Part shown: positions 2,559-58,124 of the stretch, in pieces
Position numbering within the stretch: the stretch's first letter is position 1
Layout of the letters: each line of letters starts with the position of its first letter
Virus record (IMG/VR): IMGVR_UViG_3300003962_000013
Span: 1 to 64,000 of that record
DNA from: a virus
Taxonomy: Duplodnaviria; Caudoviricetes
DNA: 64,000 bases
Strand: one strand, 5' to 3'
The notes under the pieces: generated by a model
What the model saw: the letters and a program-made list of their open reading frames with translations, nothing else
The model's database searches: none
Told to the model about the DNA's origin: nothing
Translations under genes and position numbers: made by a program

Positions 2559-3512
2559 TTATGAGAGAATAGCTGATGAACATAATTCTTTTTTATCTCT
2601 ATATTGGCAAAATCTACAATTAGATTTAGACGGGATAGGAGCATGTTCATTAGAATTATAAGAACCATCTAGATTAAAAATATCACTAATAAATTTATCT
2701 AGGGCTGTTTTAGCTTTTTTTACCTTGGTTTTTCCGTTTGCTGGAGTAAATTGTTGAATACGTTTTTGAGGAAATTCACTTTCTTCCCAAATTTTTCTTT
2801 TTACTATAAAAAATTCCACATCTATATTTTCTTCAGGCACACCAAATTGTTCGCTGAAGAATTGTTTGTATAATAAAATTTGAAATTGTTTTACTTCATC
2901 TTTCTTTTCAGCATCTTTCCATCCTCTAGTACTAGTTTTTATATCATATATAACAAATTTTTCAGTTGCTTCATGATATAATACTAAATCTATATATCCG
3001 TTGTATAAAACATTGTTATAGCGTTTATCTGGAGTTATAACTATTGGGATTTCAATTCCTACTAAATGCCATCCTCTTACACTAAAATATTCACTTCTTT
3101 TCTTCTTAATAAATTCTAAAATGGCAATTCCATCATCAAAAAATTCTCTCATTTCTTGAGGATTACTAAAATGAATATTTTGGTTATCTTTATAACCTTT
3201 AGAATAATTTTCTCTAAATCTTTCCTCAAAATATTCTTCTAAATCTAGTTCATCTGCTTTTACACCACTTTCACTATAAAGTGTATTTATATAGTTTTGA
3301 ACAGTTTCATGTATTGCTGTTCCAAAAGTCATATTAATTGACTGTGAATATACTTTATAACCATCTCTGTATTGCAATGACCATCTTTTAGGGCATTGCA
3401 AATACATTGATAATTGGGAGTATGAAATTACTTTATTAGTAGAATAATCTATCTCTTTGGGAACAAAGTTACGAATTTGTTTTACTATGGAAGGTGTTTT
3501 ATCTTTAGCCAC
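2559..3512 (-). CDS. PD-(D/E)XK (Cas4/AddB-like) nuclease
   Basis: SYSQ..CP, GTAIH, GYID, DIKT, QILLY and C-terminal CRFC...C. Confidence 0.85.
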   Translation of the reverse strand: MAKDKTPSIVKQIRNFVPKEIDYSTNKVISYSQLSMYLQCPKRWSLQYRDGYKVYSQSINMTFGTAIHETVQNYINTLYSESGVKADELDLEEYFEERFRENYSKGYKDNQNIHFSNPQEMREFFDDGIAILEFIKKKRSEYFSVRGWHLVGIEIPIVITPDKRYNNVLYNGYIDLVLYHEATEKFVIYDIKTSTRGWKDAEKKDEVKQFQILLYKQFFSEQFGVPEENIDVEFFIVKRKIWEESEFPQKRIQQFTPANGKTKVKKAKTALDKFISDIFNLDGSYNSNEHAPIPSKSNCRFCQYRDKKELCSSAILS

Positions 3513-4099
3513 TATTTATTACTTTTTTGTCTATTTTCTTTAATTGATAAAGGTTGGGTATTCAAATAATGAAATGCTTTTAATATTTCTTCTTCTTTGG
3601 TTAAATCAAAATTTGAGATTGCTTTAATATGATCTATTTCCCAATAAGTTCCATAATTTTCCCAATTCATTTCTGGGTTGAATAATTTTTCCAAATATTG
3701 TTTATACTCATTTATTGAACACCCAAGATATTTTTTATAGGTACCAGATTTAGGAATAGAATTTACTAAAGCTTGTCTTATATAATGTCCGATATTTTCT
3801 CTAAGTTGATAAATAGGAGATTTTTTCCGATATTCTTTCATATATTCTCGTTGTCTAACTCTTAGTTTTTCTTTATTTTTTTCTCTCCATTTATCAATCG
3901 TTTTATTATATTTTTCTTTATTTTTAGCTAAACGTTCTCTACTCTTTTTATATTGTTCCTCTTTATTATCTTGATAATATTCAGATTGATATTCTTTTCT
4001 ATCTTGTTTATTATTTTGATAATATTTTTTAGCTAATTCCTTACCCTTACGTTCATAATACTCTTTTTGTTTTTCTTTAGTCCAATATTTATTTACCAT
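3512..4099 (-). mobile_element. free-standing HNH homing endonuclease
   Basis: MNWENYG.WEIDHIKA...NTQPL...N..KSNK; basic N-terminus. Confidence 0.85.
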
Positions 4100-4494: not shown

Positions 4495-4921
4495 TTTTAA
4501 TAAGTTTTTTTATTTCTTTTTCATCTATTCCTTTTTTGATCAAAATATCTTCTACCCCTTCTTTTCTCAACAACGAAATATATTCATCTGCTTCACCTAA
4601 AGAACATTCAAAATATTCAGCTATATGTCTTGATAATTCAGGATTAATAGATTTTTTTAAATTTGATTTAATATAGGGAGAATAGGTATTTTTTGATTTG
4701 GGAATGAAATAACAATATACTTCATATAATTTTTTATTATTTTGAATATTAAGTCCTTGAACATAGTTTACTATTTCAACATATTTAGGATTCATTGATA
4801 AAAATTTATTAACCATAAAGTTGTTGAATTGTTTTTGTTGTTCAGGAGTAAATAAATCCCATGGTTTTTTAGTATCTATTATACTTTTAACCCAGTCAAA
4901 TATTGTAAATTGTTTATTCAT
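4487..4921 (-). CDS. clamp loader small subunit (T4 gp62-like)
   Basis: FMVNKFLSM, IAEYFECSLGEADEY; close to the gp44-like gene. Confidence 0.7.
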   Translation of the reverse strand: MNKQFTIFDWVKSIIDTKKPWDLFTPEQQKQFNNFMVNKFLSMNPKYVEIVNYVQGLNIQNNKKLYEVYCYFIPKSKNTYSPYIKSNLKKSINPELSRHIAEYFECSLGEADEYISLLRKEGVEDILIKKGIDEKEIKKLIKNG

Positions 4922-5486
4922 ATTTCCATCTAAATTTTCCGCATGTTTTAGTTCTTCCTTTTAAACAAGCACATAATGTTCCACTATCTAAATTATTATA
5001 TTTAGCTGCTGTTTTTATAGAATCATATCTTTTAATTTCATTCCAATTTAAATCAAATTGTATTATTGGTATAGAAAGAGCTTTGCTTATCATATTTTTA
5101 GATTTTTGAGATTTTTTCTTACCTAAATTATATTTATTACCTAATCTAAATTTACTCATTTTTTGTTTAGTCTCTTCACTTAAGGCTCCTTTTCCTTTTC
5201 CTAATCTACAATTTAAACCATTTTTTAAAACATCAAATTTTTTTCCTAAATATACTTCTTTTTCATCTAATTGGTCTAAAGAACATTCTTCAACTATTTC
5301 AAATATATGATTTTCAGGACCATATTTTTTAAGGGAATTATAAAGTTTAGTTTGTTGTTTACAATTAAATAAATTTAAATATTCATTAAATCTTCTTTTA
5401 ATATTTACACTTTGTCCAATATAAACTTTACCACTAGGACTTGTTACCTTGTATATTCCTATAATAGCGTTGTCGTGCTTTTTCAT
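4914..5486 (-). mobile_element. GIY-YIG homing endonuclease with NUMOD3/NUMOD1-type C-terminus (likely start ATG 5486)
   Basis: GIYKVTSPSGKVYIGQS; SEETKQKMS; C-terminal GKFRWKY. Confidence 0.9.
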
Positions 5487-5583
5487 CTTCTTGTTCTTTA
5501 TTTTTCCAATAATATTTTTTGGAAGCATTCGCTCTAGCTTTTTGCTTTTCTTCAGGTGTTTGATATTTTTTAATTCTTCCCAT
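5434..5583 (-). CDS. 49-aa basic leader ORF overlapping the GIY-YIG gene (not in ORF track)
   Basis: MGRIKKYQTPEEKQKARANASKKYYWKNKEQEDEKARQRYYRNIQGNKS*; paralog at 57932-58072. Confidence 0.75.
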   Translation of the reverse strand: MGRIKKYQTPEEKQKARANASKKYYWKNKEQEDEKARQRYYRNIQGNKS

Positions 5584-5587
5584 CAAT

Positions 5588-5631
5588 TATAAATATTGGA
5601 AAATTTTTAAAGATCACAAAAAAGATCACAA
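5588..5631 (-). promoter_or_regulatory. ATATTTATA promoter-like motif plus tandem direct repeat
   Basis: TATAAATAT at 5588-5596 (+); AAAGATCACAA at 5609 and 5621. Confidence 0.65.
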
Positions 5632-5874
5632 CGTTTTATTATATTCAATATATTCTTCTCTTAATTCTTTAGGAAGCATCTCAATTAAAATTTTACCAGT
5701 TTTTAAATCAACAAATACTGGGATAGGTACGATTGCATCTTCACTAGTACCAGTTAAAAATTTACTGATTTTTCTTAGTACTGTAGCTTCTTGGAAAACT
5801 TGTCCTCCATCTTCTGATTTAACTGGTGTAGACTGAGTGATGTCTATTTTCATTTGTGGTTGATCTGGTTGCAT
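5626..5874 (-). CDS. hypothetical protein
   Basis: ORF, operon packing. Confidence 0.7.
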   Translation of the reverse strand: MQPDQPQMKIDITQSTPVKSEDGGQVFQEATVLRKISKFLTGTSEDAIVPIPVFVDLKTGKILIEMLPKELREEYIEYNKTL

Positions 5875-5876
5875 AA

Positions 5877-6125
5877 TTATTTAGTTTTAATTGTTTCTAG
5901 AACTTTTCTTTGTAATTCTTTAAATTCGATTTCATTGCAATCTTTAGAGTTAAACATTTCAAATTTAACATCTCCAATCGAAGATATACAATCAAATATA
6001 CACATCACGTGGTAATCTGGGAGTTTAATAGATATTTGTTCAATTGTATCTTCTATGGTTTCATTTTTTTGTAAATGAGAATATGTTTCTTGGGGGAATC
6101 TAATTATGAAAATTGGTTTAGCCAT
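5877..6125 (-). CDS. hypothetical protein
   Basis: ORF, operon packing. Confidence 0.65.
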   Translation of the reverse strand: MAKPIFIIRFPQETYSHLQKNETIEDTIEQISIKLPDYHVMCIFDCISSIGDVKFEMFNSKDCNEIEFKELQRKVLETIKTK

Positions 6126-6142
6126 GAAATTTTTAATTTAAA

Positions 6143-7078
6143 TTATAATATTTTTTTAGTGTTTACTGTTTCTAATATTTTAGATATGCAAGCCATTATA
6201 TTTATCTCTTTATCAAGTCTAAAAGTAGCATGATACATATATTCTTCTAAATAACATATTATTATACCTTCATTTCCTTTAGAATATTCATTCAATTTAT
6301 CATATAAAAACTTATATAAACTATCAAACTCATCTATCTCTGAATTGGCAATGATTTGTCTTATATTGTTAAAAGATTTAAATGAAGGTTTTTTTAATTC
6401 TTCCAATATCTTTTCTTTATAATCATCAGATATATTTATTGAATTATCAAGAACTAATTTATTATCAACAGTATATTTTTGACAATTATTGATAATTTTT
6501 CTAAAATCAGGATAGAATTTATTTATAATAGTAACTAAATCTTGAACATCATAAGTAATTTCTTCTTTATCTAGAATAGTACTGATATGTTGTGCTACTA
6601 TTTTTTTGGTTGGAGGTGATAAATCAAATTCTTGACATCTGCTTCTTAAAGGTTCAATTAAACGTTCAGGGTAATTACCTGTTAAAATAAAACGAGTAGT
6701 TAAGCTATATGTTTCCATCATGTTTAACAATATAACCTGAGATGCTTGTAAAATATGGGTTGCTTCATCTAAAATTACTATTTTAATAGGTTTAAATGAA
6801 CCAGCAGCAGCAAATGCTCCTACTTTATCTCTCATAACATCTATTGATCGTTCATCAGTAGCATTAATATAAAGATAATCACAATCAATATTTTTAACTA
6901 ATATTTTAGCAATTGTAGTTTTACCAGCACCTGGTTTACCTGCAAATAACAAATGAGGAATATCTTGTTTAGCAATGAATTCTTGGAATTTATTTTTGAT
7001 TTCATCTTTACAAATATAACCTTCTAGAGTGTTAGGTCTCCATTTTTCATTTAATATTGTGTGTAACCTTTTTGACAT
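6143..7078 (-). CDS. clamp loader large subunit (T4 gp44/RFC-like AAA+)
   Basis: EKWRP, GKPGAGKTT, ILDEA, PLRSRC. Confidence 0.93.
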   Translation of the reverse strand: MSKRLHTILNEKWRPNTLEGYICKDEIKNKFQEFIAKQDIPHLLFAGKPGAGKTTIAKILVKNIDCDYLYINATDERSIDVMRDKVGAFAAAGSFKPIKIVILDEATHILQASQVILLNMMETYSLTTRFILTGNYPERLIEPLRSRCQEFDLSPPTKKIVAQHISTILDKEEITYDVQDLVTIINKFYPDFRKIINNCQKYTVDNKLVLDNSINISDDYKEKILEELKKPSFKSFNNIRQIIANSEIDEFDSLYKFLYDKLNEYSKGNEGIIICYLEEYMYHATFRLDKEINIMACISKILETVNTKKIL

Positions 7079-7327: not shown

Positions 7328-8953
7328 TTAAAACATTCCTGGGATTCCACCCATGTTTGGTTCTTTGTTATCTTTATTTGTTTCTACTATGGCTGCTTCT
7401 GTTAATAATACAGTTCCGGCAATTGATGCTGCATTTTCAATAGCATTTCTAGTTACTTTAGTTGGATCTATAATACCTTCTTTTTCCATATCAACGAATT
7501 TTTTGGTTTTTAAGTTATAACCAATCCAATGATTACTTTTTTTAATTTTATTTAATAATTCATATCCTTTATCATCATTGATACCTGCGTTAGATAATAT
7601 TTTAATAAAAGGAGAACCACATGCTTTATAAACAATTTGTTTACCAATTTGTTCATCTATGTTTTTTGAAGGGGTGATACTTTCTCTAGCATGTATTAGG
7701 GCTGAACCACCTCCTGGTACAATTCCTTCTTCTATAGCTGCTTTTGTAGCTTGAAGAGCATCATCTACTCTATCTTTGGTTTCTCTCATTTCTAATTCTG
7801 AGTTTCCCCCAACATGTATAATTGCTACTCCACCTACAAATTTAGCTAAGCGTTCTTGTAATTTTTCTTTTTCAAATGGTGTTTGTGCTTTATCAATTTG
7901 TGATTGAAGATTTTCTATTCTTAATTTGATTTTTTCATCCGTTCCTTTACCATCAACAATAGTTGTTTGATCTTTAGTAATAGTAACTAGACGAGCTCTT
8001 CCAAACCATTTAGGATCAAACTTATCCAATTTCATATTTTTTTCAGGACTAAATACTTCTCCTCCCGTCATAATTGCTATATCTTCAAGTATAAGCTTTC
8101 TTCGTTCTCCATAATCTGGGGATTTAACTGCTGCTACTTTCAATATTCCTCTCATTTTATTTACAATAAGAGTGGATAATGCTTCTCCTTCAATGTCTTC
8201 AGCAATAATTAATAATGATTTACCACTTTGAGAAACATTCTCTAAAATAGGTAATAAATCTTTTACTTGAGTAATTTTTCTATCAGCAATTAATATAAAA
8301 GGATCTTCTAAAGTACAAGTCATATCATTGTTGTTAGTAACAAAATAATGGGATTTATAACCTCTATCAAATTGAATACCTTCTACTGTTTCAAGATATG
8401 TATCTCCACTTTTAGATTCTTCAATAGTAATTATCCCTTCTCTTCCTACTTTTTTCATAGCAGTAGAAATTAATTTTCCTACTTCTGGATCATTATTGGC
8501 TGAAATTGTTGCTACTTGTTCTAATTGGTTTTCTGAGGATATATCTTTAGAAACATTTTTTCTTAGATAGGTTACTACTTCTTTAACTGCTGAATCCATT
8601 CCTCGTTTAATATCTACAGCGTTTGATCCTCTATCCAGATATGTAACACCTTCATTTATCATCTTTTGGGCTAAAAGAGTAGAAGTTGTAGTACCATCAC
8701 CAGCGCTTGTTGCTGTTTTAATAGATACTTGTTTTATCATTTGTACTCCTAGATCTTCTAGAGGTTCTTCAATATTGGAAATTTGTTTAGCTACTGTTAC
8801 TCCGTCTTTAGTACTTCTCACTTCACCCATTTCAGTGTATATAACATTTCTTCCGTTAGGACCCAATGTTGAAGTAACTGAATCTGCTACTTTGTTAATA
8901 CCATTAACAATTTTTTTACGAGCTTCTGGCCCAAATTCTACATTTTTATTCAT
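7328..8953 (-). CDS. groL: chaperonin GroEL
   Basis: [37 protein letters not shown]. Confidence 0.97.
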
Positions 8954-10324: not shown

Positions 10325-11236
10325 TTAATTAAAAGTAAAAAATTTATTTACATTCGGGTTTAAGGGAGGAAAATCCCAATTTAAATCTTTATATAGGTTT
10401 TTCAATTTGTTAGCTAATAAAGAATCAAAAATTTCATCTACATCTATATATGTTTTAACAAATTCTTCAATTTCTTGTGGAGTAGTGGCATTTGGTAAAC
10501 CTATAGTTTCTAAATGATAAGGATTTTGTTTTAAATTAATAATAAATAATTTATCTCCTTCAATAATAGATTCATATTTTTTATCTAGTTTCTTAAATTT
10601 AAGTAAATCATTATATCGAACCGCTGCTTTAGTATTTGAAGGAGCTTTTATTCTAAAACTTGAAAACATATCCCCAGCTTTAGCTGGTATTTGATATGCT
10701 TTTATTTGTTTTACTCCTGTAGGTTTACCAAGAGATCTAGGGTCTAAGGTTTTCAATGTTTTGTAAAAATTAACTATATCAGCATCAATTTCTGGTTTTG
10801 GTTTACCAAACAAAATATTTTTGATTAAATCTTCTCCAAATTTTTTAAATAATTTATTCATATTGGACTTCATTAATTCAAGTCCTTTCATGTCTAATTC
10901 TTCAACAGCAACACCTTCTTTGTTAGTAACATACATTGCATAACGACGTTTACCAGTTGTAAGTACCCCTGCACATATTACCTCTTGTTTTAATTGGAAA
11001 TAATGGGTGCCGGGTTTGATGTTGAATAGACGTTTATTTAAACTGTTTAAGTTGTCATTTGATTCGTTTTGGATTTGATTTGCTAATTTTAATATGATCT
11101 CATTTTTATTGGTATCATCAATTTCAATACCTTGAGATTTCATATGATCCAGTAATGGACGTAATCCTATAAAAAGACTATCCGTATCCGAGATTTTAAT
11201 ATGATTTGTTTCCTTTATTTCTGTTTCCGATGTCAT
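10325..11236 (-). CDS. polB: family B DNA polymerase, C-terminal piece (motif C, palm/thumb)
   Basis: ISDTDS, KRRYA, KGLE, C-terminal clamp-binding-like NKFFTF. Confidence 0.9.
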   Translation of the reverse strand: MTSETEIKETNHIKISDTDSLFIGLRPLLDHMKSQGIEIDDTNKNEIILKLANQIQNESNDNLNSLNKRLFNIKPGTHYFQLKQEVICAGVLTTGKRRYAMYVTNKEGVAVEELDMKGLELMKSNMNKLFKKFGEDLIKNILFGKPKPEIDADIVNFYKTLKTLDPRSLGKPTGVKQIKAYQIPAKAGDMFSSFRIKAPSNTKAAVRYNDLLKFKKLDKKYESIIEGDKLFIINLKQNPYHLETIGLPNATTPQEIEEFVKTYIDVDEIFDSLLANKLKNLYKDLNWDFPPLNPNVNKFFTFN

Positions 11237-11963
11237 TTATATAACCGTATTGTTCTGCTATTTCTGTTGTTTTAAATAGTGGTTGTAAATTTGTATAATG
11301 AAAGCATTGTTTTTGTTCTTCTAGTTTAGTTAAGTCAAAGTTTGAACAAGCTTTAATATGATCTATTTCCCATACTATTCCATGGTTTTCCCAAGTCATT
11401 TCAGGTTTAAATTGTTGTTCTAAATATAATTTAAGTTCTTCAATAGAACAATTTACTAATTTAAGTACAGACTTTATTTTATGTCCTTTAATTACAACAC
11501 GATAAAATCTATTTCTTAGAGTAGTTTTAATTTTATATTGAACATCATTGTTGTATCTATTATTTTGGTATGGTCTGTCTCTTTCAGCTATATAACCATA
11601 TTTTAAATTATATTCTTTTACACATTCTATACATTTATTTTGTAAACCATGAGGAGCTTTTTTATCAGGGTAAAATTCTATTTTATTTTTTATTGTAAAA
11701 CATGTATTACATTTTTTTATATTTTTATATTTTTCCTCTAAAAGTAACCATTTATATTCGTATTGTTGAAATGTTTCTTTTAATGTTTTACCTTTACGTT
11801 TTTCTCTAAACCACAATGCCCAACATCCATTACAGTAACCGCTTGATTGTAGTTGTTCAAATTCTTCTACACAACCAGTACATCTTTTTCTTAAACCATC
11901 TTCAGAATATTTTATTAAATCTATATTATGTTTATATTGTTTTCTATTTTTTGTTTTACTCAT
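11196..11963 (-). mobile_element. HNH homing endonuclease between the two polB pieces
   Basis: two CxxC pairs repeated; WEIDHIKA..NLQPL..GNRNK. Confidence 0.88.
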
Positions 11964-27419: not shown

Positions 27420-28115
27420 TTAGTTTTTATATTTCCAGATAAATCCACCTGCTTTTTTTGTTTTTCCACTAAGATTAAAAGATATAGTTTTAATCCCGGT
27501 TGTTTTAATAGCTTCATTTAATGAAGAATATGTTTTTATTATTTCATTTGTATTAAAATCTAATTGCATTATAGTTTTTCCTTTTTTATTTTTTCCTTTT
27601 TTTGATTTACTAATTTTTTCCCCCCAAGTAATATTTCTTGGTTTTCCTTTTTTTGATTTACTAATTTTTTCTCTATGTTCTTTTGAGTAAATTTTTCCTT
27701 TTTTTGTATTACTCATTTTTTGTTTACTTTCATCAGAATACTTAAAACCAGTTCTATTTTTACTTCTTTTATTTTTGGTTTCTTCACTTTGTTTTTTTCC
27801 AATTAACATTTTGGAGTGTTCTTGTTTTAGACGCTCATATATTCTTGAACTTATCATATAATGTTTATTTTTGGTTTTTTGCTTACCTATAGCCATTAAA
27901 AATAAAGCATACTTAAGTTTAAACTCTTCAGAATATATTTCACATAACAAACGATGACATAAAAAATGTTCTCGTGCTGTTAGTTCAACTAAGTTTTCTT
28001 TTATATCTAAACCACCAATACATTTAGGTATGATATGATGTTTTTCTTTATAACCTTCTAGTTGACGTGTTTTAGCACGTTCTATAATTTGATTGTATAT
28101 CCTTTGATAATCCAT
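27420..28115 (-). mobile_element. HNH homing endonuclease with NUMOD3 repeats (MobE-like)
   Basis: EKHHIIPKCIGG..NLVELTAREHFLCH; SEETKNKRS repeats. Confidence 0.9.
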
Positions 28116-47678: not shown

Positions 47679-48332
47679 TTATAAAGTTTTATATTTCCAA
47701 ATAAACTTACCACAAGTTTTTTTGAATCCATTAATTACATTCCATATTCCTGCTTGTTGTAAATTTAATTCTTTTGCAGCTTGTTTTGATGATTGCCATT
47801 CTCGTATATATTCTCCATCTAAATTATATTGAATTACAGGTATAGATTTTGCTTTAATAACAGCTTCAACATGATAGTTTCGAGAAACTCCTTTATCTTT
47901 TCTTGTTTTAGTTATATTATGTTTTTTACCTAATTTACTTATTTTAATTTTTTCTTTATGTTCTTTAGTCAATATTTTTCCTTTATTTCTACTCACTCCT
48001 TTATTTGATTCACTGTTTTTTCTTCTTGTTTCTTCACTATCAAAAGAACCAAAACCTCTTCCTAATCTATTGTTAAGATGTTTGTTATTTAAAACATTAT
48101 ATTTTAATCCCCAAAATATTTCTTGATTATCTAAATTTTTAACTTCACATTCTTCAATTATTTCAAATGTATGGTTTTCAAAACCATATTTTTTTAATGA
48201 TGAATACAAACTAGGTTGGTCTTTGCATGCTAATTGTTTGTATTTAAGCCATCTTCCTTCTATATTGGTAGATTGCCCAATATATATTCTTCCATTAGGG
48301 TTTGTTATTTTATAAATACCTATTTTAGCCAT
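47679..48332 (-). mobile_element. GIY-YIG homing endonuclease
   Basis: GIYKITNPNGRIYIGQS; NUMOD3/NUMOD1-type tail. Confidence 0.9.
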
Positions 48333-55225: not shown

Positions 55226-55810
55226 TTATTTTAATTGATTTGATTTATTTCTATTTCCTATTTGATTAGAACCATATTGTTCTGCTATTTCTGTTGTTTT
55301 AAAACGAGGCATTAAATTAGTATAGTGAAAACACTTTTGTTGTTCTTCTAATTTAGTTAAATCAAATTTTGAACAAGGTTTAATATGATCTATTTCCCAT
55401 ATTTTTCCATAATTATTCCAATCCATTTTATTGATGAATTGTTGTTCTAAATATAATTTAAATTCAATTACTGAGCATCCTAATAATGTTATAATAGATT
55501 TTGATTTTGAATTGGAATTAATTGCTTTAAAAAATCTAGATCTTAGATTATCAGAAATTCTAAATTGGATATTATTTTTTCTTTTATTGGATTTATAAAT
55601 ATTACTATATATAGTTTTTCTTTTTCTATTTATAATATTATATTTTTTAAAATATAATTTTTGTTGTTCTTTAATACTATTTTTATATTGTTTAGTACAT
55701 AATTTACATCTAGGTTCTTTCCCATCTGGAGAGTTTTTGTTATTTGAAAAATAATTATTCTCTTGTGGGATTTTACATTTATTACAAATTTTTGTATATA
55801 AATATTGCAT
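55226..55810 (-). mobile_element. HNH homing endonuclease
   Basis: CxxC; WEIDHIKP..NLMP..IGNRNKSN; paralog of 11196 and 57337. Confidence 0.88.
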
Positions 55811-56620: not shown

Positions 56621-57340
56621 TTAATTAAATTTTACTTTAACCAAAGGATCGATTCCTGCTTCGATATGCCATGTATTTTGTTGACATAAAGTAAAATCAT
56701 ATCTTTCGTCAAACGGAAGTATTAATTCTGCTTGGCTACCCCATCTTACTAAAGCAAATCGTTGGTTTTGAGAAAATAATTCATTTTGACCTAAAACAAA
56801 AGGACATATTACATTTACATCTTCATCTGCTATTAAAGTAATATAATAAGTGTAATCAAGTAGTGATGAATAAACTTCAACTAACATTCTTTCATTATAC
56901 TTCAGATAATCCATATTATCAGGATTAATAGCTTGATTCAATAAATCTTTTTCAACTGCGAGCATTGGTCTGTTTGTTGACTCAATAGGTTCTAGTTGTT
57001 TATAACGTACTACTCCTCCATAAGGAATACGAATTATATGAGGGTCATAAAATGATAAAAATACACCCACAACAAGTGAAGGTTTATTATATGTTTTATC
57101 ACCTATAACATCTTGTAAAGTGTAATTTATACCTTTTATCTCAACTACTTTATCTGATGGATTATTTATATGTTTTTGATACATTATAGTTCCATCACAA
57201 GGTGAGTAGAAATGTTCGTTATCAATATAATTAGGCCTCTGCGGATCGCGGAAAAAAAACTGTGTGCTAAGTTTGGTGAGATTCATTTTTTTACATTTGG
57301 AAATGTCTTCTTTAATCCACTGTTCTAACGATTTACTCAT
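56621..57340 (-). CDS. phosphatidylserine-decarboxylase-fold pyruvoyl enzyme
   Basis: FFFRDP.R, SPCDG, FLS.YDPH, WGS self-cleavage motif. Confidence 0.8.
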   Translation of the reverse strand: MSKSLEQWIKEDISKCKKMNLTKLSTQFFFRDPQRPNYIDNEHFYSPCDGTIMYQKHINNPSDKVVEIKGINYTLQDVIGDKTYNKPSLVVGVFLSFYDPHIIRIPYGGVVRYKQLEPIESTNRPMLAVEKDLLNQAINPDNMDYLKYNERMLVEVYSSLLDYTYYITLIADEDVNVICPFVLGQNELFSQNQRFALVRWGSQAELILPFDERYDFTLCQQNTWHIEAGIDPLVKVKFN

Positions 57341-57975
57341 AATATTTTATTTGATTTATTTCTATTTCCTATTTTATCTTTATAACCAAAAGATTGAGCA
57401 ATTTTAGTAGTCTTAAATATAGGTCTAGTATTCTTATAATTAAAACATTCTTTTTGTTGTTCTATATCTTCTAAATCAAATCTACTACAAGGTTTAATAT
57501 GATCTATTTCCCAAACTATCCCATGATTTTCCCAAGTAAATTCAGGGAGAAATTGTTGTTCTAAATATAATTTATAAAATATTATTGTACAACCTATAAA
57601 TTCTAAAGTATTATTTTGTTTAGTAATATTATTAGTATGTAAAACTTCTCTAATTCTATTACTTATATTTAATCTTAATTTAACTTGTTTATTAGAATGA
57701 TATTGTTTTACTCTATATTTATTTATCTTTTTTCTACTAATTAAATTATATTCTTTTTGGTAATTGTATTTTTCATAGTGAATTTTGTGATAATCATGTC
57801 TTGCTTTTTTATTTTCAGAATGATAATTACTACTATACCCTCTTTTACATCCCTTACATTGATTTTCTAAACCATCTTTAGTTCTATTATGTTTATAAAA
57901 ATTATTTAGTGTTTTAAATTCATTACAAACTCTACAATTCTTTTTTAGCTCTATCTCTTTGTCGTTGTTTTTCAT
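57337..57975 (-). mobile_element. HNH homing endonuclease (likely start ATG 57975)
   Basis: CRVC/CKGC; WEIDHIKP; IGNRNKSNK. Confidence 0.88.
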
Positions 57976-58072
57976 CACATTTTTCTTTGTTTTTCCAATA
58001 ATATTTCTTGGATGCCTTAGCTCTAGAAGCTTGCTTCTCTTCAGGAGTATTGTATTTTTTTAGGCGGCCCAT
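57932..58072 (-). CDS. 46-aa basic leader ORF overlapping the HNH gene (not in track)
   Basis: MGRLKKYNTPEEKQASRAKASKKYYWKNKEKCDEKQRQRDRAKKEL*; paralog of 5434-5583. Confidence 0.75.
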   Translation of the reverse strand: MGRLKKYNTPEEKQASRAKASKKYYWKNKEKCDEKQRQRDRAKKEL

Positions 58073-58080
58073 TTATCGGA

Positions 58081-58124
58081 TATAAATATGTTAAAAAGAA
58101 TAAAGATCAAAAGAAAGATGACAA
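58081..58124 (-). promoter_or_regulatory. ATATTTATA motif plus tandem direct repeat
   Basis: TATAAATAT at 58081-58089; AAAGATCAAAA at 58102 and AAAGATGACAA at 58114. Confidence 0.65.

What the first reader, a model, noticed from the sequence alone, without database searches (positions are those of the whole stretch)
5434..5631. Portable repeat + promoter + overlapping leader-peptide cassette in front of a GIY-YIG nuclease (copy 1)
Seen: AAAGATCACAA occurs twice with a 12-bp period (5609, 5621), exactly 12 nt from the ATATTTATA motif. An unannotated 49-aa basic ORF follows (MGRIKKYQTPEEKQKARANASKKYYWKNKEQEDEK...). Its GAT-GAA-AAA (D-E-K) codons contain the nuclease's ATG-AAA start in the +1 frame. 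The same architecture recurs 52 kb away in front of an unrelated HNH nuclease. Inference: a self-contained control module shuffled between nuclease families. The peptide could bind the repeat (autoregulator), inhibit the nuclease (antitoxin-like) or throttle its translation. I know of no description of this module.
Basis: partly seen in the sequence, partly recalled or inferred. Interest (0 to 1): 0.85.

Follow-up and report, generated by a model that had tools for sequence, protein, structure and literature searches.

The report
Portable controller cassette for phage homing nucleases
A roughly 165-bp module (two phased DNA repeats, a phage promoter and a tiny translated gene that contains the nuclease's start codon) sits in front of selfish DNA-cutting genes of different families in many Flavobacterium-type phages, and probably keeps these nucleases on a short leash.

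Summary
The parts are two TTGTGATCTTT units 12 bp apart, the motif ATATTTATA, a 49-aa basic ORF, and the GIY-YIG start codon inside that ORF's codons 33-34 in the +1 frame. A second copy precedes an HNH gene 52 kb away.

All 75 related metagenomic loci keep the layout: a stand-alone 42-51 aa ORF, ATG at nt 98 in +1, and two tandem 11-12-bp units plus the motif. The small ORF is under protein-level selection. No conserved RNA structure was found.

Near-identical cassettes front a GIY-YIG gene in one contig and an HNH gene in another, with sharp boundaries. Fifty-two related contigs show the empty site.

The peptide (basic arm plus one long helix, no Pfam family) is a free copy of a module that distant HNH and EndoVII nucleases carry in frame.

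Best reading, not shown: a controller circuit like the C proteins of restriction-modification systems. The small protein would bind the repeats, and its translation would dampen nuclease initiation. It is not a member of the C-protein family.

I rate it a new variant of a known kind. The scan noted the same cassette in another genome (e1-5865992).

The parts
5621..5631 (-). Copy 1, repeat unit 1 (TTGTGATCTTT). It is the 5' edge of the mobile insert, and its TGA is the stop codon of the upstream 82-aa gene.
5609..5619 (-). Copy 1, repeat unit 2 (TTGTGATCTTT), 12 bp after unit 1.
5584..5596 (-). Copy 1, promoter-like motif ATATTTATA plus ATTG. It ends directly at the leader ATG.
   Evidence: The motif occurs 22 times in the window, 21 of them on the coding strand, against 9 expected.
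5434..5583 (-). Copy 1, small gene ('leader'), 49 aa. The conserved core is residues 1-40.
5484..5486 (-). Copy 1, nuclease ATG inside leader codons 33-34, +1 frame.
   Evidence: The Asp codon is GAT and the next base is G in 49 of 49 unique cassettes.
4914..5486 (-). GIY-YIG + NUMOD3 + NUMOD1/I-HmuI-like homing endonuclease, 190 aa. Its last codons overlap the new ATG (4921) of the gp62-like clamp-loader gene.
58114..58124 (-). Copy 2, repeat unit 1 (TTGTCATCTTT).
58102..58112 (-). Copy 2, repeat unit 2 (TTTTGATCTTT).
58081..58089 (-). Copy 2, promoter-like motif ATATTTATA, 8 nt before the leader ATG.
57932..58072 (-). Copy 2, small gene, 46 aa, 78% identical to copy 1 over residues 1-40.
57337..57975 (-). 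HNH-type endonuclease (zinc ribbon, Y-x-x-N-K repeats, HNH tail), 212 aa. Its ATG lies at nt 98 of the leader, +1 frame.

Best explanation
SHOWN. The locus is the 5' control cassette (about 165 bp) of a free-standing homing endonuclease gene in a T4-like myovirus related to Flavobacterium phages. In gene order the cassette holds:
1. Two phased 11-12-bp direct repeats.
2. The phage's own recurrent promoter motif, ATATTTATAAT.
3. A small translated gene that starts 3-9 nt after the motif.
4. The nuclease's start codon, embedded at codons 33/34 of that gene in the +1 frame, in an A-rich, unstructured stretch.

The cassette moves as a unit between GIY-YIG and HNH nuclease genes. Cassette plus nuclease is a precise insertion between conserved phage genes. 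The small protein has a basic N-terminal arm and one long helix. It is a detached copy of an unannotated module that distant HNH and endonuclease VII proteins carry in frame at their N-terminus.

INFERRED MECHANISM. This is a controller circuit analogous to the C proteins of restriction-modification systems.
- The promoter makes a leaderless or nearly leaderless transcript, so the small protein is made first.
- Two copies of the protein bind the two repeats, which lie one or two helical turns upstream of the promoter motif. That binding feeds back on transcription of both genes.
- Ribosomes translating the small gene run over the nuclease initiation site, which keeps nuclease synthesis low.
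- The net effect is tightly limited, self-contained expression of a potentially toxic nuclease wherever the element lands.
For: Layout is conserved:
- All 75 loci plus the 2 window copies have a stand-alone 42-51 aa ORF.
- All have the +1 ATG at nt 98; it opens a 150-280 aa ORF wherever the locus holds the whole gene, except L053 (17-aa mini-ORF).
- Of 48 unique downstream proteins, 44 are GIY-YIG and 4 are HNH.
- Repeats and motif lie upstream in all.

The small ORF is translated and selected:
- pN/pS is 0.45 in frame, against 0.75-0.86 in the other frames.
- Arg3 is encoded by AGA, CGT, CGC and CGA.
- One relative has a normal 5'UTR with GGGAG before the same ORF.

The nuclease ATG is selected: GAT followed by G in 49 of 49, whereas other Asp codons vary.

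There is no RNA switch: 0 conserved pairs and z = -1.4.

The cassette is portable: L006 and L026, at least 40 different flanking contexts, and the empty site in 52 contigs.

The repeats behave like an operator:
- There are always two units.
- Both units change together between subfamilies: TTGTGATCT, TTCTTAGAY, TTGGATCTT, TTCAMTCTTTA.
- These classes go with different peptide residues 10-23.
- One phage record carries two cassettes with different units and different peptides.
- Spacing to the promoter is quantised by one unit, i.e. about one helical turn.
- Other promoters of the same phage lack these units.

The binder is unlikely to be the nuclease, because GIY-YIG and HNH versions share the same repeats.

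The peptide is a real module: 164 clusters at 50% identity, and it is fused in frame to HNH (P0180, P0149) and Endonuclease_7 (P0130). The AF2 model is an arm plus a helix at pLDDT 82.

The precedent for such a circuit is the C proteins (PMC2632904, PMC2997769).
Against: - No DNA-binding fold or family was recognised: Pfam none, PDB sequence search none, Foldseek none. A single helix with few hydrophobic residues is an unusual sequence-specific binder.
- The co-variation of repeat and peptide involves only about 4-5 classes that lie within 60 bp of each other, so shared descent alone could produce it.
- Phased T-tracts could act as bent or UP-like DNA, or bind another factor.
- The transcription start is unknown. 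If it lies after the leader ATG, the own-promoter transcript would not encode the peptide.
- For PvuII, overlap of the C and R genes had no measurable translational effect (PMC2997769), so the 'throttle' part may be weak.
- Spacing from motif to ATG varies from 3 to 9 nt, so strict leaderless initiation is not universal.
Confidence: 0.45

Rival explanations
1. Detached nuclease subunit, or OrfA/OrfAB-type arrangement. The small protein is the nuclease's N-terminal DNA-binding or targeting module, supplied in trans. Alternatively it is joined to the nuclease at low frequency by +1 ribosomal frameshifting, as in IS1/IS3 transposases. Alone it would act as a competitor or regulator.
For: - Distant relatives carry the module in frame on HNH and EndoVII nucleases.
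- The in-window HNH gene 3512..4099 has similar Y-Y-x-x-N-K-E repeats in frame.
- The nuclease is in the +1 frame in every subfamily, at offsets 88, 97, 121, 160 and 202.
- A-runs such as GAA-AAA-G allow tRNA-Lys to re-pair in +1 (sequence).
Against: - The nuclease has its own ATG in a good A-rich context, conserved in 49 of 49.
- No shift site is conserved: AAA-G in one class, AAA-C or AAA-T in others. There is no stimulatory structure.
- The +1 frame's openness is explained by composition, because leader second codon positions are rarely T. Two loci have TAG right before the ATG.
- One module would have to serve unrelated nuclease folds.
- GIY-YIG homing enzymes normally have the catalytic domain at the very N-terminus. 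The FL-1 homologue starts MIGIYK and has no such module.
- Natural in-frame fusions are nearly absent among close relatives.
Confidence: 0.2
2. Pure translational throttle. The small ORF matters only because ribosomes translating it occlude the nuclease start. The repeats are promoter architecture (bent or UP-like DNA) or the site of some other phage or host factor.
For: - The nuclease initiation region lies wholly inside the small ORF.
- There is no RNA structure, and no Shine-Dalgarno use in this phage.
- The stretch before the ATG is conserved even at third codon positions.
- T4 seg and mob genes overlap upstream ORFs, apparently to limit translation (PMC2988022).
- Ribosomal occlusion by uORFs has been shown in bacteria (PMC13285730).
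- The units are T-tract rich and phased.
Against: - The amino-acid sequence of residues 1-32, upstream of the overlap, is conserved with synonymous change.
- The module is homologous to one found in many other proteins. A traffic-only uORF needs no particular sequence.
- The non-T positions of both units change in concert, and there are always exactly two units.
- Other promoters of the phage lack these units.
Confidence: 0.2
3. Decayed fusion. The small ORF is the frameshifted remnant of an N-terminal nuclease domain and has no function of its own.
For: - The module occurs in frame in distant nucleases.
- A few odd variants exist: P0061 and P0062, with tails that look out of frame.
Against: - The identical split layout is found in 77 of 77 copies spanning 51-98% peptide identity and at least 40 genomic contexts.
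- The small ORF is under purifying selection.
- Its own ATG always sits directly behind the promoter, usually just after a stop codon.
- Most partners are GIY-YIG genes, which do not carry this module in frame.
Confidence: 0.03

Closest known systems
Controller (C) proteins of type II restriction-modification systems (C.PvuII, C.AhdI, C.Esp1396I)
   Same: - A small regulator gene lies directly upstream of, and overlaps, a nuclease gene in one operon.
- Two binding sites lie at or upstream of its own promoter.
- The start codon is very close to the promoter, with leaderless mRNA common.
- The unit is portable between unrelated nucleases.
- The purpose is limited or delayed nuclease expression.
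(PMC2632904, PMC2997769.)
   Different: - C proteins are 70-100 aa Xre-type helix-turn-helix dimers that bind palindromic C-boxes. This peptide is a 40-aa arm-plus-helix with no HTH, and the sites are direct repeats.
- The C/R overlap is within about 20 nt of the C stop codon. Here the nuclease start lies 26-56 nt inside the small gene.
- There is no methyltransferase partner, and the host element is a phage homing endonuclease.
Regulation of T4 homing endonuclease genes (I-TevI autorepression; hairpin-masked RBS of I-TevI, segB and mobE; seg/mob overlaps with upstream ORFs)
   Same: - Free-standing GIY-YIG or HNH genes inserted between conserved genes.
- They are driven by the phage's own promoter class.
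- An operator lies next to the promoter (I-TevI).
- The nuclease start lies inside an upstream ORF (segC, mobA and mobC, 20-24 bp).
(PMC2988022.)
   Different: - The putative binder is a dedicated element-borne small protein, not the nuclease.
- There is no RNA hairpin.
- The upstream ORF belongs to the element and travels with it. It is not a neighbouring host gene.
PeSL promoter/stem-loop cassettes of T4-type phages
   Same: A short conserved regulatory cassette containing a promoter recurs in front of unrelated genes and marks recombination junctions (PMC2839356, PMC4122927).
   Different: - This cassette contains a protein-coding gene and tandem repeats.
- It has no stem-loop or terminator.
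- It is tied to nucleases only.
IS1 InsA/InsAB' and IS3-family OrfA/OrfAB (from my own knowledge)
   Same: A small upstream ORF encodes the DNA-binding part and overlaps the catalytic ORF in another frame. The small product acts as regulator of a selfish element.
   Different: - Those use a -1 frameshift at a conserved slippery heptamer, and the downstream ORF usually lacks its own start.
- Here the frame is +1, the ATG is conserved, and no conserved slip site was found.
NUMOD modules of homing endonucleases
   Same: A short module shared across GIY-YIG and HNH enzymes, presumably nucleic-acid binding. It occurs in frame in some HNH and EndoVII proteins.
   Different: - There is no match to NUMOD1-4 or to any Pfam model.
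- It is usually encoded as a separate polypeptide.
- It lies N-terminal or upstream of the nuclease, not in the C-terminal DNA-binding region.

Membership tests
Free-standing homing endonuclease gene (GIY-YIG / HNH) | Nuclease catalytic domain plus modular DNA-binding region | tested here: met
   Copy 1 hits GIY-YIG, NUMOD3, NUMOD1 and I-HmuI_NUMOD-like and PHROG homing endonuclease families. Copy 2 hits PHROG endonuclease VII/HNH families and has an HNH tail.
Free-standing homing endonuclease gene (GIY-YIG / HNH) | Presence/absence insertion between conserved genes of related phages | tested here: met
   In 52 related contigs the 82-aa gene abuts the gp62-like gene (gap -13 to +30 nt) with no nuclease. 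W1 and L004 carry the insert.
Free-standing homing endonuclease gene (GIY-YIG / HNH) | Site-specific cleavage of the empty allele and gene conversion | not testable with these tools
   This needs enzyme assays and co-infection crosses.
R-M controller (C) protein family | Xre-type helix-turn-helix protein of about 70-100 aa | tested here: not met
   No Pfam family at E <= 0.1. The AF2 model is one helix, residues 10-46, after an extended arm. No PDB relative by sequence or fold.
R-M controller (C) protein family | Two palindromic C-box sites overlapping its own promoter | tested here: not met
   Two sites are present just upstream of the promoter motif, but they are direct repeats, not palindromes.
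R-M controller (C) protein family | Gene upstream of and overlapping the nuclease gene; leaderless mRNA | tested here: inconclusive
   The overlap is met in 77 of 77 copies. Leaderless status is only suggested: the ATG lies 3-9 nt after the motif, against mostly 10-24 nt at the window's other copies of the motif (a few are as short as 5-7 nt). No TSS data.
PeSL cassette | Early promoter combined with a stem-loop terminator | tested here: not met
   No terminator-like site in 4800-6200. No conserved pairing.
Leader-peptide attenuator / arrest-peptide switch | Alternative RNA structures or a masked start site controlled by leader translation | tested here: not met
   RNAalifold on 30 cassettes predicts 0 pairs. 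The single-sequence fold gives z = -1.4.
IS1/IS3-type programmed frameshift pair | Conserved slippery site (plus stimulator) and a downstream ORF dependent on the shift | tested here: not met
   The nuclease's own ATG is conserved in 49 of 49. The A-run context differs between classes and there is no structure. In two loci a stop lies directly before the ATG.
NUMOD1-4 modules | Match to a NUMOD profile | tested here: not met
   No Pfam hit on either leader. There is only a weak match to PHROG 17714, of unknown function, E = 1e-3.

The most novel reading that the evidence does not exclude
A 40-residue, single-helix protein is a new kind of sequence-specific DNA-binding controller. It co-evolves with its own pair of 11-12-bp direct repeats and travels as a plug-in 'safety switch' for homing endonucleases of unrelated folds. 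It would be a phage counterpart of restriction-modification C proteins built from a different, so far unannotated module. That module is also found fused to HNH and EndoVII nucleases and at the N-termini of eukaryote-looking proteins.
Probability: 0.35. Interest if true: 0.75.

Novelty: new variant of a known kind. Interest (0 to 1): 0.66.

Why it matters
How free-standing homing endonucleases are kept harmless to their own phage has been worked out only for a few T4 genes, through hairpins, late promoters and I-TevI autorepression.

This cassette would be a general, transferable solution. It is present in at least 75 viral contigs and 164 protein clusters, in a host group (Bacteroidota) that lacks Shine-Dalgarno initiation, where the T4-style masked-RBS trick is not available.

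It also does three further things:
- It defines an unannotated small-protein and N-terminal module family associated with nucleases.
- It gives a clean natural example of a start codon held inside another gene by selection: GAT followed by G in 49 of 49 unique cassettes.
- It offers a compact promoter/operator/regulator unit that could be tested as a genetic part in Flavobacteria.

Tried and rejected
- RNA switch or masked start. RNAalifold on 30 cassettes predicted 0 pairs. The single fold is not better than shuffles. Rejected.
- Terminator or PeSL-like stem-loop. None found.
- Nuclease autorepression in the I-TevI manner. Rejected, because GIY-YIG and HNH versions share the same repeats.
- Known fold or family for the peptide. 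Pfam none. PHROG gave only a weak hit to a family of unknown function. PDB sequence profile none. Foldseek PDB none. The ESM atlas gave only unnamed clusters.
- Cultured phage carrying the cassette. tblastn and blastn against 50,697 phage records found nothing (the low-complexity filter may hide it). Flavobacterium phages immuto and FL-1 lack it.
- In-frame fusions among close relatives. Only P0061, a deletion derivative.
- Programmed frameshift. No conserved slip site was found. It is kept as a minor rival.
- CRP-like site. TGTGATCT resembles a CRP half-site (from my own knowledge), but the units are direct repeats and the other classes lack it. Dropped.
- Dam GATC sites. Not conserved across classes. 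Dropped.
- A formal phylogeny-corrected test of repeat/peptide co-variation. Not attempted, because the parts lie within 60 bp and share one history, so it would not be decisive.

Full report
OBSERVATION

All genes in this part of the window read on the minus strand. Read in the gene direction, copy 1 contains these parts in order:
- The last codons of an 82-aa gene. Its TGA stop lies inside the first repeat unit.
- TTGTGATCTTT at 5631-5621 and again at 5619-5609.
- A 12-nt spacer.
- ATATTTATA at 5596-5588, then ATTG.
- An ATG at 5583 that opens a 49-aa basic ORF (MGRIKKYQTPEEKQKARANASKKYYWKNKEQEDEKARQRYYRNIQGNKS), ending at 5434.

Nucleotides 98-100 of this ORF are an ATG in the +1 frame, formed by the T of GAT(Asp33) and the GA of GAA. 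This ATG starts a 190-aa protein with GIY-YIG, NUMOD3, NUMOD1 and I-HmuI-like domains.

Copy 2 has the same order: units at 58124-58102 with one mismatch each, the motif at 58089-58081, a 46-aa ORF at 58072-57932, and the +1 ATG at 57975. Its partner is an HNH-type gene. The two copies are 74% identical over about 170 nt and at background level (54-58%) outside that stretch.

IS IT MORE THAN CHANCE?

A single 11-mer match is not above chance. The arrangement is.
- A scan of IMG/VR with the peptide returned 75 loci.
- In all of them the ORF stands alone (42-51 aa) with its ATG directly behind the motif.
- All have an ATG at the same position in the +1 frame. Wherever the locus holds the whole gene it opens a 150-280 aa ORF; the one exception is L053 (17-aa mini-ORF, see Noticed in passing).
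- All show two tandem 11-12-bp units followed by ATAT(T/G/A)TATAAT.
- Units match each other at 9/10 or better in 35 of 49 unique cassettes, against 3-4% of shuffled or random windows.
- In the whole 114.8-kb record, tandem units occur only at the two cassettes.
- None of the other 24 copies of the promoter motif in the window has these units.

THE SMALL ORF IS A GENE
- For codons 1-32, upstream of the overlap, pN/pS is 0.45 in frame and 0.75-0.86 in the other two frames.
- Third codon positions vary most.
- Arg3 is written AGA, CGT, CGC or CGA, and Tyr codons are split evenly between TAT and TAC.
- A more distant relative (L079) has the same ORF and the same +97 ATG behind a normal 5'UTR with GGGAG.
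- Sixty clusters of 44-51 aa homologues exist in the 90% clustered protein collection.
- A profile search of 1.84 billion representatives found 164 clusters, most of them 42-90 aa with the module at residue 1.

THE NUCLEASE START IS SELECTED

Asp33 is GAT and the next base is G in 49 of 49 unique cassettes. Asp codons elsewhere in the leader include GAC. The homologous nuclease of Flavobacterium phage FL-1 has no cassette and starts MIGIYK. The cassette therefore contributes the first seven residues (MKKQDNx) and the start site.

THE CASSETTE IS PORTABLE, AND THE WHOLE ELEMENT IS MOBILE
- L006 (GIY-YIG) and L026 (HNH) are about 94% identical from the first repeat to about 22 nt beyond the nuclease ATG, and unrelated on both sides.
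- Of 48 unique downstream proteins, 44 are GIY-YIG and 4 are HNH.
- Flanking genes fall into at least 40 different contexts.
- For copy 1 the empty site is seen directly. In 52 related contigs the 82-aa gene abuts the gp62-like clamp-loader gene (gap -13 to +30 nt). In W1 and L004 about 710 bp is inserted, running from the first repeat to the nuclease stop.
- The original overlapping start of the clamp-loader gene is lost. The 3' end of the nuclease gene supplies a new ATG at 4921.

THE PROMOTER MOTIF AND THE HOST
- ATATTTATA occurs 22 times in the window, 21 of them on the coding strand, against 9 expected.
- It lies 7-33 nt before many start codons, including tail sheath and tail chaperone genes. 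It is therefore the phage's own promoter class, probably late.
- No gene shows a Shine-Dalgarno sequence.
- The sheath protein is 54% identical to that of Flavobacterium phage immuto.
- A Bacteroidota host is therefore likely, where initiation relies on A-rich, unstructured regions (from my own knowledge). The nuclease ATG sits in exactly such a stretch (AAAAATAAAGAACAAGAAG-ATG-AAAAAG), conserved even at third codon positions of the leader.
- The leader ATG lies only 3-9 nt after the motif, against mostly 10-24 nt at the window's other copies of the motif, a few of which are as short as 5-7 nt. That suggests a leaderless or nearly leaderless message. There are no TSS data.

WHAT THE PEPTIDE IS
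- No Pfam family matches it. There is a weak match to PHROG 17714, a family of unknown function.
- There is no PDB relative by sequence or by fold.
- AlphaFold2 with 62 homologues gives an extended basic arm (residues 1-9) and one helix (10-46) at pLDDT 82.
- Distant relatives carry the module in frame: P0180 (module, Y-Y-x-x-N-K-E repeats, HNH), P0149 (repeats, HNH) and P0130 (module, Endonuclease_7).
- The in-window HNH gene 3512..4099 has similar repeats.
- Other subfamilies keep it as a separate small ORF in front of other endonucleases. The nuclease start is at +88, +121 or +160, always in the +1 frame.
- The preference for +1 is explained by composition. Leader second codon positions are rarely T, so +1 stays open, while the other frame is full of stops.
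- Among close relatives, in-frame fusions are essentially absent. The one case, P0061, is a deletion derivative.
- The peptide is therefore a detached nuclease-associated module, not a decayed fusion.

THE REPEATS LOOK LIKE AN OPERATOR
- There are always two units.
- Their non-T positions differ between subfamilies (TTGTGATCT; TTCTTAGAY; TTGGATCTT; TTCAMTCTTTA), but the two units of one cassette stay alike.
- The unit classes go with different peptide residues 10-23.
- One phage record (G005) holds two cassettes with different units and different peptides. The units are therefore not tuned to a single phage-wide factor.
- The units sit either directly next to the motif or one unit length (11-12 bp, about one helical turn) further away.
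- GIY-YIG and HNH versions share the units, so the nuclease is not the binder.
- No conserved RNA structure exists.

MECHANISM (INFERRED)

The best fit is a controller circuit like that of restriction-modification C proteins. Those are small regulators encoded upstream of and overlapping the nuclease gene. They bind two sites at their own promoter and are often translated from leaderless mRNA (PMC2632904, PMC2997769).

Here the small protein would bind the two repeats and feed back on the promoter. Ribosomes translating it would pass over the nuclease start and limit nuclease initiation. That resembles the seg/mob overlaps in T4 (PMC2988022) and ribosomal occlusion by uORFs (PMC13285730).

It fails the membership tests for the C-protein family: there is no HTH, and the sites are direct repeats rather than palindromes. 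So it works like a C protein without being one.

Rivals:
- A detached nuclease subunit, or an IS1/IS3-like frameshift pair (0.2).
- A traffic-only throttle with structural repeats (0.2).
- A decayed fusion (0.03).

LIMITS
- DNA binding, the transcription start, translation of both frames and any regulatory effect are untested.
- The repeat/peptide co-variation rests on few classes within one tightly linked segment.
- No cultured phage with the cassette was found.

NOVELTY

I found no description of this module. The scan itself noted the same cassette on another genome (e1-5865992). I rate it a new variant of a known kind (regulated free-standing homing endonuclease; C-protein-like control). 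It has a new small-protein module and a strikingly conserved embedded start codon.

Noticed in passing
window 4914-4921 and 5626-5640; L090-L141: The insertion destroyed the original overlapping start of the gp62-like clamp-loader gene. Empty sites read GAATATGAAGAG...; the filled site reads GAATATATTGAA. The last codons of the nuclease gene supply a new ATG (ATGAATAAA at 4921). The first repeat unit supplies the stop codon of the upstream 82-aa gene: TGA in W1, TAA in L004.
   Followed up: partly
window 3512-4099, 11196-11963, 27420-28115, 47679-48332, 55226-55810 (all minus strand): At least five further homing-endonuclease-like genes lie in the window without the leader cassette. They include an HNH gene with in-frame Y-Y-x-x-N-K-E repeats, a GIY-YIG/NUMOD1 gene and a NUMOD3 gene. 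Most follow the plain ATATTTATAAT motif at 12-15 nt.
   Followed up: partly
L053:2443-2620: In this cassette the +97 ATG opens only a 17-aa mini-ORF. Its TGA overlaps the ATG of an HNH gene (ATGA). The cassette's initiation site is thus relayed to a newly acquired nuclease by termination-reinitiation.
   Followed up: no
window 5440-5470; L003-L025: In the GIY-YIG versions the leader tail R-Y-Y-R-N-L-Q, which resembles a second Y-Y-x-N repeat, is overprinted on the catalytic I-I-G-I-Y-K motif of the nuclease in the +1 frame.
   Followed up: no
proteins P0136, P0157, P0182, P0205, P0207, P0208, P0117, P0187, P0202: The MGRxKKY-T-EE...YYxxN module also heads 160-265 aa proteins that look eukaryotic (fungus-like, Ser/Thr-rich or with coiled-coil tails). 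They have no Pfam domain. Their origin and meaning are unknown.
   Followed up: no
window, whole (minus strand): The recurrent promoter-like motif ATATTTATAAT has 21 of its 22 copies on the coding strand. There are no Shine-Dalgarno sequences and the 5'UTRs are very short. The nearest cultured relative is Flavobacterium phage vB_FspM_immuto (sheath 54% aa identity).
   Followed up: partly
window 7328-8953 (-): The phage encodes a full-length Cpn60/GroEL-type chaperonin (Pfam E = 2e-69), next to the gp44-like clamp loader. L040 has its cassette directly upstream of a homologous chaperonin gene.
   Followed up: no
L081:801-1931: In this distant relative, the gene upstream of the leader plus HNH pair is another NUMOD4-containing protein. 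That suggests clusters of homing genes.
   Followed up: no
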